Assembly (NCBI GenBank): GCA_043381765.1
Contig: JBHJMP010000048.1
Location: 1-39,864 of the forward strand
DNA: 39,864 nt
Reading direction: 5' to 3'
Origin: Collodictyon triciliatum
Lineage: Eukaryota
Shown in pieces: positions 9,401 to 29,776 of this stretch. Both the position numbers and the translations under genes were made by a program. Position 1 is the first letter of the stretch, and each line of letters opens with the position of its first letter. The notes under the pieces are model-generated. The model was not told where the DNA came from. It made no database searches and was given only the letters and a program-made list of their open reading frames with translations.

Positions 9401-12400
9401 CAAGAACATGACTGTCGGGGTGATTTGTTTTTTTCCACTATTATTATTTGTTTGGTCGTGTGAATAGGTAGAAAACATACGATATTGTAGCCTTCACCCA
9501 TTGAGCCAATGGTGCAGCAGCAGCACTGCTTCTCTTCGCAACTCTCTCCTCAAACGATTCTCCCTTCTTCTCCAGGAACTTTTCAGTTCGGATGCGATTT
9601 TCTTGATAATAGAAATCAAGTATGATGAGATGATAAAATATAAATAAAGAAAATGCAATAGAGGACAGAGAGGGGATAAGAAAAAAAAAGAGGAAAAAAG
9701 AAACTGGTAAGTAATCACTGAGATATTTCCTACCCCTGTTCACGTTGTCCATATCAAAACTCAGAATATCGTCCTTCAGTTTCAAGAGGAATGTCTTCAT
9801 GGTCGCCCAAGATGTGTCCTGAATACCCATGAGACACATAACGCCTTCAAGGATGTCTTTGATGACTTCTGGTGGAGCACGTAGCGAGCGAATTTCCTGG
9901 ATATCCTTCGAGCTTATCGAGCCAACAGCACTTTTTGCAGCATCAAGAACGGGCTGGATGGATGCAAGCTCGGACTGGATCTTTCCTTGGCGAACAATAA
10001 GCTCCTTCTCTTCGATGGCTTGCTGGGCGGACAGCTGCTCGATTTGCAACCTCTGCTTGCTGGTCTATAGCGATCAAACTGCATTTGAGTGGGGCACTGG
10101 CATTTTGCGATGCTTGCTAGTAAAATATTCTGATAGTATACAGTAAAAGATAATATATATGTAGGGAATATCAAAAAGTGAGAATTACTCCGTCCATGCT
10201 CTTCTTGATCTGGCCCAAAGCTTGGTCAGCAGCTTTTTGCTTCTTATTGAGCTCTTCTTTTTTCTTTGATGCTTCCTTCTTCAACTCGTCGACAACAGTC
10301 TTTCGAAGTTGAGTAATAATATGAAATATGAAAAAAAATAATTATTTGGACGTGTGATTCAGTATATCTAATAATCATTTGCATACCGCAGCATCCTTCA
10401 ATTTCCGAAGCCCGTTTTGGAGAAATGTATATTGTTCTTTAGTGTTTCCGCTACGAGCATCTGCTCACATTTCCCAAAGACAAGAAAAAATGAATAAGTC
10501 GGTACACAAGATTTTCGTATGCAATTTTTTGGAGTAAATCACATTCAGTATAATAAAACTAAATAATTGTGTAATTCACAAACTAAAAGGTCATTATTAG
10601 AATTGCATTGGGTCAGGTACCGTATATCTTGGTGTAGGTATTCAGAAAGGCGATGTAATCTCTTGGTGTTGCTCCTCGCTCGACACATCGCTTGTGTATT
10701 TCGACGAACCGGTTAACATGTTCCTTTTTATCGCCCTATACATAATCACATGGCATTAGAGAACTGATTGTAACCACTTTTAGAGCACAACTAGATAAAC
10801 GAACAGTATAATGCAGAACCTTGATCTCTTTAAGATGGCTTCGGAGCAATATGCGAGGCACTTGTTTCATTCCTTCATCAGTCCACGAGTCAAACCATTG
10901 TAGTGAGCAAATAGTATACAATGCCGGGTTCGATTCTGTTCGCTGTTGGAACTCGATATTTGTCGGGTCCATACTATGAGTTTTTGAATTCGTGAGGTGG
11001 TAATTCTCAAATAAGCTGGCATGAAATCGAGTCCTAGAATTTGCTAGAGCATTCACCCAAAAACAACATGCAAGTATTTCTTTATCCTGCTGACAAAGAA
11101 TGCAAAAGTTGTTCCACGGAAGCCCTGATCTTTGAGAAGGTCCTATATGGTGCAAATAAATTAAGCACACCCCGGGTTCAGTTTCTTCTTATTTCTGACA
11201 TTATCACAGGAAAATGAAAGTTTGGTTTGAATGATATTCCTTAAAATAAAATAACATGCCAAAATGAAATGAAAAGAATGAATATAATGAAAATAGTACT
11301 CTCAATGGAAGTAGTAGATTATCCAACTCTTCCGAGGAATATAATCCTGGAACTTCACCAGCACTAAGAATGCTATTCATTATTTCAAGGAACGTCCTAT
11401 TATTATTCATAAGTTGTAATTAATAAAAATCGAGTGAAGGGAATGGCTCGTTTGCCTTTGTGCGATTACAGAAGATAAATCGATTATGATGCTACCCTTT
11501 GATAATTTGGTGGTCTTCCAGATAAAATACAGTGTGTTCTCCTTCAACTCCAGCTTTGGCCAAAACTGCTTTCAAGTCCGCATAAAATGCTACACAAACA
11601 TAAAAATCACTAGGAAGATTCATTTTCAAAGAAATTACAAATAATCCGCATACACTTCATGTTATAGTCGCGGGTGATATTTGGTGAGTAGAACACCATC
11701 CGAGACATAAAACATGTCAGGGCCACTGACGTCCGCCGACCAACGCCTCCACGACCAGCCATCAGCAAAGACCCGCCGTCAGTAGAAAGGACACGGTCGA
11801 CTCGAGATATATGCGCCAAGATTTCGGGGAAGAGAAAAATATTCAGCTCCTTGATTTCTCGTTCATACTTTTGCAGACCCGTTGCCACAACTTGCAAAAA
11901 GTCTTTCGGGTCCACTTTCTTCAGCAATTTCACTGTAGCGATCAAAAAATATGAAATAAATACAATACTTAAGCAAATCATCGAAAAAGACATGCATCTA
12001 ATTTTCATGGATGAGGCATGGAAATATGACAGATATTGAGAAGGATATACGGATATGAAAAGTAGTATCATAAATGAGGATACTTTGGGGTGAGGGGACA
12101 AAAATAGGATGTCAAATTAACCTTCTCCTGACATCGATGCAAAACTAGTAAAGTAAATCTCCTTCAAATCAGCAGAGGACCCCCATTGTTTGGCAATCGG
12201 AATAACTAACCCATCCCATTTCTGATACGAAAATGGTCAGATATTATTATCTTACTCAAGTTTTTGAAATATCGAAACAATTCATCATTCATTAGAACCG
12301 TTTATTAAGTGTCTTCTTTCATTTATTTATATATCTATACTTTTGCATCTTTGAATCGAATAGAGGGGGAATATATGCTTTTGCATCTTTTATCTTGTTG

Positions 12401-29776: not shown

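What the first reader, a model, noticed from the sequence alone, without database searches (positions are those of the whole stretch)
12336..27851. Family B micro-insertions: ~20-30 nt TTGAATCGAATAAAGG(A)n elements with TSDs, in both orientations
Seen: five intronic copies of (C)TTTGAATCGAATAAAGGRG(A)n. Three are on the + strand (12353, 24748, 27811) and two on the - strand (26951-26973, 27624-27646). Flanking direct repeats are 17 bp (1 mismatch), 15 bp (1 mismatch), a degenerate 13 bp, 12 bp (perfect) and 17 bp (perfect). The 27624 insert is only 23 nt, barely longer than its own TSD. At 12350 the end of the TSD (cttt) is microhomologous to the element 5' end. The core is unrelated to family A apart from a shared GAATAAA near the tail. 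Inference: a second independent family showing the same extreme shortness, so it may be a genome-wide property of retrotransposition in this organism (eight insertions in about 16 kb of one gene). It could reflect host restriction or selection on intron length.
Basis: partly seen in the sequence, partly recalled or inferred. Interest (0 to 1): 0.75.

Follow-up and report, generated by a model that had tools for sequence, protein, structure and literature searches.

The report
Ultra-short retro-insertions in dynein introns
Five copies of a roughly 20-base sequence, most with an A-rich tail and a duplicated target site, sit in the introns of a dynein gene of an unidentified freshwater protist; they look like reverse-transcribed insertions that always stop at nearly the same very short length.

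Summary
TTGAATCGAATARAGG occurs 5 times at the stated places (0 of 100 shuffles reach 5).

- **Target-site duplications:** four of the five copies have duplications of 11-17 bp. Random sites reached 12 or more matched bases in 0 of 4000 trials. The fifth copy, at 27811, has only a degenerate 9-of-11 repeat, which is not above chance.
- **Host gene:** a minus-strand cytoplasmic dynein-2 heavy chain gene with many short introns. Spliced RNA contigs place two copies inside introns of 121 and 119 nt.
- **Other loci:** contigs from three other studies carry the same element with different flanks, so it is interspersed.
- **Mechanism:** variable duplication length, an A-rich tail and extra bases at the 5' junction fit nick-primed reverse transcription (LINE-type).
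- **Fixed length:** the five 5' ends fall within 5 nt (70 of 200,000 simulations under uniform truncation). No shorter or longer copy was found. Selection on intron length alone therefore does not explain the size.

My best reading is abortive copying of the last ~18-20 nt of a retroelement RNA. No parent element, RT gene or whole genome was available. Genome-wide scale, source RNA and host taxon remain open.

The parts
12336..12390 (+). B1. TSD 12336-12352 / 12374-12390 (TATACTTTTGCATCTTT vs TATGCTTTTGCATCTTT, 16 of 17). Insert is about 21 nt, GAATCGAATAGAGGGGGAATA. CTTT is shared between the TSD end and the element 5' end. Variant core (AATAGAGG), tail only AA.
24733..24791 (+). B2. TSD 24733-24747 / 24777-24791 (14 of 15). 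Insert 24748-24776 is GCTTTGAATCGAATAAAGGAG + A run. It lies in a 121-nt GT-AG intron (24705-24825) of the minus-strand gene, antisense to it.
26937..26985 (-). B3. TSD 11-12 exact (13 of 14). Element is TTGAATCGAATAAAGGGAA on the minus strand, tail only AA, followed by a T run that is longer than in the 5' TSD copy. It lies in a 119-nt intron (26918-27036), in sense to the gene.
27607..27663 (-). B4. Perfect 17-bp TSD (27607-27623 / 27647-27663). The 23-nt insert 27624-27646 reads AATTGAATCGAATAAAGGAAAAA on the minus strand, with two extra 5' bases. It directly abuts the (ATAGAG)n array, inside an intron of about 546 nt (27143-27687).
27811..27838 (+). B5. CTTTGAATCGAATAAAGGGG + A8. The flanking repeat is only about 9 of 11 and not above chance. 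It probably lies in an intron (about 27715-27955), but that is inferred, not shown by RNA.
13080..13162 (+). A1 (companion family). TSD 16 of 17. Insert is TTTCC + CACCATCCTGCACAAAATTGAAAGGAAGAATAAA + A run.
15302..15376 (+). A2. Perfect 15-bp TSD. Insert is TA + CACCATCCTGCAC...GAATAAA + A12.
16259..16348 (+). A3. TSD 17 exact (18 of 19). The insert starts about 12 nt further 5' (AGCCAACATCTT + CACCATCC...). It lies about 25 nt inside an intron, measured from the 5' splice site.
2045..28100 (-). Host gene: cytoplasmic dynein-2 heavy chain. It is extremely intron-dense (15 introns of 78-222 nt within 23390-27036). Its ends are approximate.

Best explanation
Family B copies are dead-on-arrival cDNA insertions made by target-primed reverse transcription.

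Proposed steps:
1. A retroelement-encoded endonuclease nicks an A/T-rich target.
2. The freed 3' end primes on the A tail of an RNA ending ...GCTTTGAATCGAATAAAGG(G)n(A)n.
3. Only the last 16-20 nt are copied.
4. The second strand is cut 11-17 bp away, which produces the duplication.
5. The short cDNA is joined, sometimes with 1-3 extra bases.

The template is most probably the extreme 3' end of a non-LTR (LINE-type) element with a very short 3' UTR. Reverse transcription ends at a preferred stop about 18-20 nt from the tail. Family A behaves the same way with a stop at about 33 nt.

Shown here: the insertions, the duplications, the tails, the near-constant 5' end, and the presence of the element at several loci.

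Inferred: that the RNA belongs to a LINE, and that the fixed end is an RT stop. The cause of the stop could be structure, bound protein or a ribosome at a stop codon; both families carry a TGA inside TTGAA.
For: - Five exact copies, against 0.1 expected.
- TSDs of 11-17 bp in 4 of 5 B copies and 3 of 3 A copies. Random sites reached 12 or more matches in 0 of 4000.
- TSD length varies. That is typical of staggered nicks in TPRT and not of DNA transposases.
- A tails of 5-12 in 3 of 5 B and 3 of 3 A copies, directly abutting the 3' TSD.
- Extra non-templated bases at the 5' junction in B4 (AA), A1 and A2, and a 4-nt microhomology in B1.
- 5 of 8 TSDs start with A, and 4 of these are preceded by T (read).
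- Only two sequence families account for 8 of the 12 clear TSD-flanked short insertions in the window. This argues for specific, abundant templates and not random mRNAs.
- The element stands at other loci with other flanks in an RNA run and in metagenome runs of two further studies. One of those copies has its own 13-nt TSD and sits just behind the A tail of another copy. Depth over the element is 246 against about 8 in X1, and 29.5 against 1-5 in X2.
- The B 5' ends lie within 5 nt. Under uniform truncation between 10 and 55 nt this happened in 70 of 200,000 simulations.
- None of the 7 other AATARAGG sites in the window carries a partial element.
Against: - No parent element was found. No RT or endonuclease domain appeared in the 38 window ORFs scanned, and no genome is held.
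- No copy extends more than 2-3 nt upstream of the core, so nothing links B to a longer RNA.
- Two of five B copies have only AA as a tail, and B5 has no convincing TSD.
- AATAAA lies only 2-5 nt from the tail. In the human LINE-1-mediated class 1 insertions the spacing is 10-30 nt (PMC5110952, passages read).
- No stable hairpin is predicted in or at the element that could explain an RT stop (z +0.4 to +0.9). Sequence upstream in the presumed parent is unknown.
- The sample is one window: 5 + 3 copies.
Confidence: 0.5

Rival explanations
1. The template is a discrete, tiny polyadenylated RNA of about 20 nt (B) or about 35-45 nt (A) that is not part of the LINE itself. Examples would be a cleavage product or a decay intermediate of an abundant transcript. 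A LINE machinery mobilises it in trans, and the fixed 5' end is the true 5' end of the RNA.
For: The 5' ends are near-constant. Extra bases at the 5' junction occur, as at template ends. No copy runs further upstream. The variable number of G before the tail looks like variable cleavage or polyadenylation sites of one transcript.
Against: A 20-nt unit cannot carry its own promoter, so each copy is sterile and the source must be a gene that was not found. A3 extends 12 nt beyond A1 and A2, so at least for family A a longer RNA exists. No Rfam family matches the elements (best E 1.2 and 5.1, far below the gathering scores).
Confidence: 0.27
2. These are ordinary, randomly 5'-truncated LINE copies. 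Only the shortest survive because selection keeps the introns of this essential, intron-dense gene short.
For: All eight copies lie in or beside short introns (78-222 nt for the 15 mapped introns). B2 and B3 already lengthen their introns from about 77 to 121 nt and from about 84 to 119 nt. Family A copies differ in length.
Against: B ends fall within 5 nt (70 of 200,000 under uniform truncation to 55 nt). No shorter copies exist. The intron holding B4 tolerates a 330-nt microsatellite, so length is not tightly limited there. About 2.5 kb of intergenic DNA at 28-30.7 kb holds no longer copy.
Confidence: 0.13
3. These are not TPRT. Either short templated patches were inserted during double-strand-break repair (class-2-like templated insertions or polymerase-theta products), or the motif is a functional intronic element and not a mobile one.
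For: Two copies have almost no A tail, one copy has no clear TSD, and the inserts are very small.
Against: Break-repair patches have no TSDs and do not reuse the same 18-nt donor five times (PMC5110952, passages read). TSDs of 11-17 bp are present in 7 of 8 copies. A splicing or polyadenylation motif would not occur on both strands at varying distances from splice sites, each with its own flanking duplication.
Confidence: 0.05

Closest known systems
Severely 5'-truncated LINE (L1-type) insertions made by target-primed reverse transcription
   Same: TSDs of variable length (11-17 bp), an A-rich 3' tail abutting the TSD, microhomology or extra bases at the 5' junction, A/T-rich nick sites and dead-on-arrival copies. 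That these are typical L1 features is recalled from general knowledge.
   Different: Here all five copies stop within 5 nt of each other at only 16-20 nt, where a broad length spectrum would be expected. AATAAA lies 2-5 nt from the tail. No parent LINE has been seen.
Class 1 templated sequence insertion polymorphisms of the human genome (LINE-1 ORF2p acting on non-LINE polyadenylated RNA; PMC5110952, abstract and passages read)
   Same: Short retro-inserted RNA pieces with a TSD, a poly(A) tail and an AATAAA signal upstream of the tail.
   Different: TSIPs are one-off copies of many different donors, with the signal 10-30 nt from the tail. Here one 18-nt sequence recurs 5 times in 15.5 kb and at other loci, with the signal 2-5 nt from the tail.
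SINEs, for example Platy-1 (~100 bp), called the shortest primate SINE (PMC4864456; search listing and start of abstract only)
   Same: A non-coding, interspersed family with an A tail and TSDs, presumably dependent on a LINE machinery.
   Different: At 16-20 nt it is about five times shorter than that SINE and has no room for an internal promoter. No match to any small-RNA family was found.
Truncated LINE tails forming SINE-like repeat families in a red alga
   Same: A short repeat family with TSDs that turned out to be the 3' end of a LINE, with one form having a fixed start.
   Different: Those copies are about 285 bp and a parent was annotated. Here they are 16-20 nt and no parent is available.

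Membership tests
TPRT-type (non-LTR / LINE-mediated) retro-insertion | Target-site duplication of variable length flanking the insert | tested here: met
   4 of 5 B copies and 3 of 3 A copies have 11-19 bp repeats. Random sites reached 12 or more matches in 0 of 4000. B5 is not met.
TPRT-type (non-LTR / LINE-mediated) retro-insertion | A-rich or poly(A) 3' tail directly abutting the 3' TSD | tested here: inconclusive
   A5-A12 in B2, B4, B5 and A1-A3. Only AA in B1 and B3.
TPRT-type (non-LTR / LINE-mediated) retro-insertion | Nick-site preference (T|A-rich, L1-like TT|AAAA) | tested here: inconclusive
   5 of 8 TSDs start with A, and 4 of these are preceded by T. The background is about 65% A+T, so the signal is weak (read).
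TPRT-type (non-LTR / LINE-mediated) retro-insertion | A parent element encoding reverse transcriptase and endonuclease whose 3' end equals the repeat | not testable with these tools
   No genome is held. None of the 38 window ORFs scanned has an RT or EN domain. Collection scans gave only chance hits.
SINE | Internal pol III promoter or a head derived from tRNA, 7SL or 5S | tested here: not met
   The body is 16-20 nt. Rfam best E-values were 1.2 and 5.1, far below the gathering scores.
Class 1 TSIP / processed retrocopy fragment | Unique donor sequences, with the poly(A) tail 10-30 nt after AATAAA (PMC5110952) | tested here: not met
   The same 16-nt core occurs 5 times in the window and at other loci. 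The spacing from AATAAA to the tail is 2-5 nt.
Introner elements (intron-creating transposons) | The insertion itself supplies or creates the splice sites, so the element is roughly the intron | tested here: not met
   B2 and B3 with their TSDs lie about 20-50 nt inside both splice sites of introns that would be about 77 and 84 nt without them.
MITE / DNA transposon | Terminal inverted repeats and a TSD of fixed length | tested here: not met
   The sequence has no TIRs and the TSD length ranges from 11 to 17.

The most novel reading that the evidence does not exclude
This protist lineage may harbour the smallest discrete retroposed repeats so far seen: units of 16-20 nt (B) and about 33 nt (A) with a programmed 5' end. 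They would be produced in large numbers by a reverse transcriptase that regularly terminates right after copying its own very short 3' UTR, perhaps at the stop codon of its ORF. They would measurably lengthen short introns across the genome, by 40-55% in the two mapped cases.
Probability: 0.3. Interest if true: 0.75.

Novelty: new variant of a known kind. Interest (0 to 1): 0.5.

Why it matters
If the fixed, extremely short length is intrinsic to the insertion process, these elements mark where a natural LINE-type reverse transcriptase lets go of its template. They would also show that retroposition can add sequence to introns in steps of only 35-65 bp. The host appears to belong to a eukaryotic lineage with no close relative in the protein collections searched (best importin-alpha identity 71%). 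Its mobile elements are therefore undescribed. If instead the copies are just the short end of an ordinary truncation spectrum, the finding is routine.

Tried and rejected
- **Whole genome:** none is held.
- **Metagenome-contig scan with the 16-mer:** 119 loci, of which 0 are followed by an A-rich tail. All are chance hits. A longer pattern including the tail would have been the better use of the single scan.
- **Genome-contig scan with a 22-mer including the tail:** 2 prokaryotic chance hits.
- **Viral-contig scans for B and A:** 0 hits each.
- **Sequencing runs:** no RNA holder is on record as RNA. X1 is only guessed to be RNA, although its contigs are spliced.
- **Read laying:** As the tool advised, I then laid the part 23200-27280. 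No contig bridged an empty site.
- **Hairpin at the element as an RT stop or recognition signal:** not supported. B has z +0.4 to +0.9, and A has z -0.8 to -1.3 with 24 and 42 of 200 shuffles folding as well.
- **Rfam:** nothing at gathering score in the window, and nothing meaningful on the elements.
- **Resemblance of the reverse strand (TTCGATTC) to a tRNA T-arm:** considered and dropped, because the tail would then be on the wrong side.
- **Other micro-insertion families in the window:** none found. The four other repeat pairs are 12-of-13 matches with long spacers and no tail.
- **Clustering of copies by family along the gene (order B A A A B B B B):** not significant by my own count, not from a call: 6 of 56 arrangements have the three A copies contiguous.
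- **Host identity:** the alveolin-like protein found no homologue at E <= 1e-5, and the atlas gave only a weak lead to IMCp (0.83).
- **Literature:** the 14-nt string GAATCGAATAAAGG is in no held paper. Searches for very short SINEs or retroposons and for very short truncated insertions turned up no description of 20-40-nt retroposon families. These are word searches of an open-access library and do not show that none exists.
- **Earlier notes of this scan:** none on this genome.
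Full report
**1. Observation**

The pattern TTGAATCGAATARAGG has five exact matches, at 12351(+), 24751(+), 26959(-), 27629(-) and 27813(+). One hundred dinucleotide-preserving shuffles gave a mean of 0.10, and none reached five. 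With the tail included and up to three mismatches allowed, no further copies appear.

Reading the sequence gives these forms, in element orientation:

| Copy | Sequence |
|---|---|
| B1 | (CTTT)GAATCGAATAGAGGGGGAA |
| B2 | GCTTTGAATCGAATAAAGGAG(A)10 |
| B3 | TTGAATCGAATAAAGGGAA |
| B4 | aaTTGAATCGAATAAAGG(A)5-6 |
| B5 | CTTTGAATCGAATAAAGGGG(A)8 |

So '(A)n' holds for three of the five copies. B1 and B3 carry only AA. The number of G between AAAGG and the tail differs in every copy.

**2. Flanking duplications**

An exact-seed scan and a one-mismatch scan give:
- B1: 16 of 17.
- B2: 14 of 15.
- B3: 11-12 exact (13 of 14).
- B4: 17 exact.

For the companion family A the values are 16 of 17, 15 of 15 and 17 exact (18 of 19).

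As a control I scored 4000 random 16-nt sites the same way, in the non-tandem part of 1-30 kb. Matches of 12 or more occurred in 0 of 4000, and of 11 or more in 5 of 4000. B5 scored 5 in that test. Its AATATAACATT / AATAAACCATT pair (9 of 11) is not above chance, so one of the five claimed TSDs is unconfirmed.

Outside tandem arrays and the GC-rich repeat gene, the window holds 11 direct-repeat pairs with 12 or more matches and a spacer under 125 nt. Seven of these flank A or B copies. B4 is an eighth flanked copy; it was masked in this scan because it touches an array, and it was found. The other four pairs are 12-of-13 matches with long spacers and no tail. No third family of micro-insertions is visible.

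**3. Context**

No genome is held for this window.

Pfam places a cytoplasmic dynein-2 heavy chain on the minus strand. Its domains run from Dynein_C at 2045-2290 to DHC_N2 at 18851-19994, with DYNC2H1_AAA_dom at 14362-14553.

Contigs of run X1 are spliced across the stretch 23200-27280. X1 is a guessed RNA run of a coded organism, and its contigs are mostly 95-99% like the window. They define 15 introns of 78-222 nt: 14 GT-AG, and one AT-AC on the gene strand.
- B2 lies in the 121-nt intron 24705-24825.
- B3 lies in the 119-nt intron 26918-27036.
- A loose end joins 27142 to about 27688, which puts B4 in an intron of about 546 nt together with the (ATAGAG)n array.

Without the insert and one TSD copy, the introns holding B2 and B3 would be about 77 and 84 nt. 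B1, B5 and the A copies are intronic by ORF and splice-motif inference only.

Six of the eight insertions are antisense to the gene. B3 and B4 are in sense.

**4. The element at other loci**

In one search the depth over 24707-24843 jumps to 246 in X1, against roughly 4-17 in neighbouring bins. It jumps to 29.5 in the freshwater metagenome X2, against 0-5 elsewhere.

Short contigs of X2, X3 (subsurface metagenome, another study) and X4 match only 24749-24780 and then run on into other sequence. At least five different flanks are listed.

One locus is seen in both X3 and X4. It reads: tail of one copy, one base, a 13-nt target sequence, a second full copy with tail, and the same 13 nt again. 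That is an independent TSD-flanked insertion right behind another copy's A tail.

Perfect 151-nt contigs of X2 and X4 elsewhere in the stretch show that the organism itself is in those freshwater samples at low depth. Depths of contigs are not copy numbers, so I give no copy estimate.

**5. Mechanism**

The following features together are the signature of target-primed reverse transcription by a LINE-type endonuclease and reverse transcriptase, acting on an RNA that ends in this sequence:
- TSDs whose length varies from 11 to 17 bp.
- A tails that abut the 3' TSD.
- Extra bases at the 5' junction (AA in B4, TA in A2, TCC-like in A1).
- A 4-nt microhomology in B1.
- TSDs that mostly begin with A after a T.

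DNA transposons are excluded because the sequence has no inverted ends and the TSD length is not fixed. Introner-type elements are excluded because B2 and B3 sit well inside pre-existing introns. Break-repair patches are excluded because TSDs are present and the same donor recurs.

**6. The unusual point is the length**

The five B 5' ends lie within 5 nt, giving bodies of 16-20 nt.
- Under uniform truncation between 10 and 55 nt, this happened in 70 of 200,000 simulations. With an upper limit of 100 nt it happened in 7 of 200,000.
- None of the seven other AATARAGG sites in the window carries a shorter remnant.
- No copy extends further than GC upstream of TTTG.
- In family A, two copies start at the same base (CACCATCC) and the third is 12 nt longer. 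So a longer RNA exists at least for family A.
- The intron with B4 tolerates a 330-nt microsatellite.

Selection for short introns alone is therefore a poor explanation. I favour a preferred stop of reverse transcription close to the 3' end of a retroelement RNA (confidence 0.5). The next best reading is a discrete tiny polyadenylated RNA copied to its true 5' end (0.27).

A hairpin within the element is not supported. What lies upstream in the presumed parent is unknown.

Both families share the layout TTGAA-(3 to 6 nt)-GAATAAA before the tail. If the TGA within TTGAA were the stop codon of the element's ORF, the 3' UTR would be only about 12 nt, and B copies would end just at that stop codon. 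This is inference from eight short sequences and could be chance.

AATAAA lies 2-5 nt from the tail. In human class 1 templated insertions the spacing is 10-30 nt (PMC5110952, passages read).

**7. What could not be done**

No parent element, RT gene or genome-wide census was obtainable.
- The single metagenome scan, made with the bare 16-mer, returned 119 loci.
- The genome contigs and viral-contig scans were blank or gave chance hits.
- None of the 38 window ORFs scanned has an RT or endonuclease domain.
- Reads could be laid only on 23200-27280. No empty-site allele was observed or excluded.

**8. Host**

The best identity for an importin-alpha exon is 71%, to plants, algae and unnamed transcriptomes. 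The neighbouring intronless, 62-66% GC gene encodes a protein built of 12-residue V/E/P/T/Q-rich repeats. It has only weak likeness to alveolin/IMCp (Pfam E 0.016, below cut-off; atlas 0.83) and no homologue at E <= 1e-5.

The AT-AC intron has the /ATATCCTT start and a TTATCTTAAC box 8 nt before the 3' end. That this is the U12-type consensus is recalled knowledge. The organism is thus a ciliated, intron-rich freshwater eukaryote with a minor spliceosome. I cannot name it.

**9. Verdict**

The retroposition reading is well supported. The 'second family with the same extreme shortness' is correct as a description. The genome-wide claim and the selection or restriction explanation are untested, and the fixed 5' end argues for an intrinsic cause.

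I rate this a new variant of a known kind (LINE-type retroposition), of moderate interest until a genome-wide census and a parent element are available.

Noticed in passing
window 24892-24992 (minus strand): One of the 15 mapped dynein introns is an AT-AC intron. It starts /ATATCCTTT and has TTATCTTAAC 8 nt before the 3' end, which is the U12-type pattern (the consensus is recalled). The host therefore has a minor spliceosome.
   Followed up: partly
window 34041-36833 (minus strand): An intronless, 62-66% GC ORF of 930 aa is built of 12-residue repeats (36- and 108-nt periods) rich in V, E, P, T and Q. It has weak likeness to alveolin/IMCp and no homologue at E <= 1e-5. It may be a pellicle or epiplast-type skeleton protein of an unsampled lineage.
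   Followed up: partly
window about 30000-38000 versus 1-30000: There is a sharp compositional switch. The dynein gene region is 33-38% GC with 20-43% GC introns. The adjacent importin-alpha gene and the repeat-protein gene are 50-66% GC.
   Followed up: no
window 13080-13162, 15302-15376, 16259-16348: Family A (CACCATCCTGCACAAAATTGAAAGGAAGAATAAA + A run) has three + strand copies with 15-19 bp TSDs. Two start at the same base and one is 12 nt longer. It shares the TTGAA...GAATAAA end layout with family B.
   Followed up: partly
whole window, for example 27287-27615, 5837-6257, 1448-1728: Microsatellite load in the introns is very high: 44 TRF rows, many 100% pure. Four of the five N gaps sit inside or directly beside such arrays.
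   Followed up: no
contigs of runs X3 and X4 laid at window 24749-24780: At another locus, a family B copy with its own 13-nt TSD sits one base behind the A tail of a further B copy. The same locus appears in metagenomes of two different studies with one base difference.
   Followed up: no
window 23390-27036: Intron density is extreme: 15 introns in about 3.6 kb, with exons mostly 50-165 nt.
   Followed up: no
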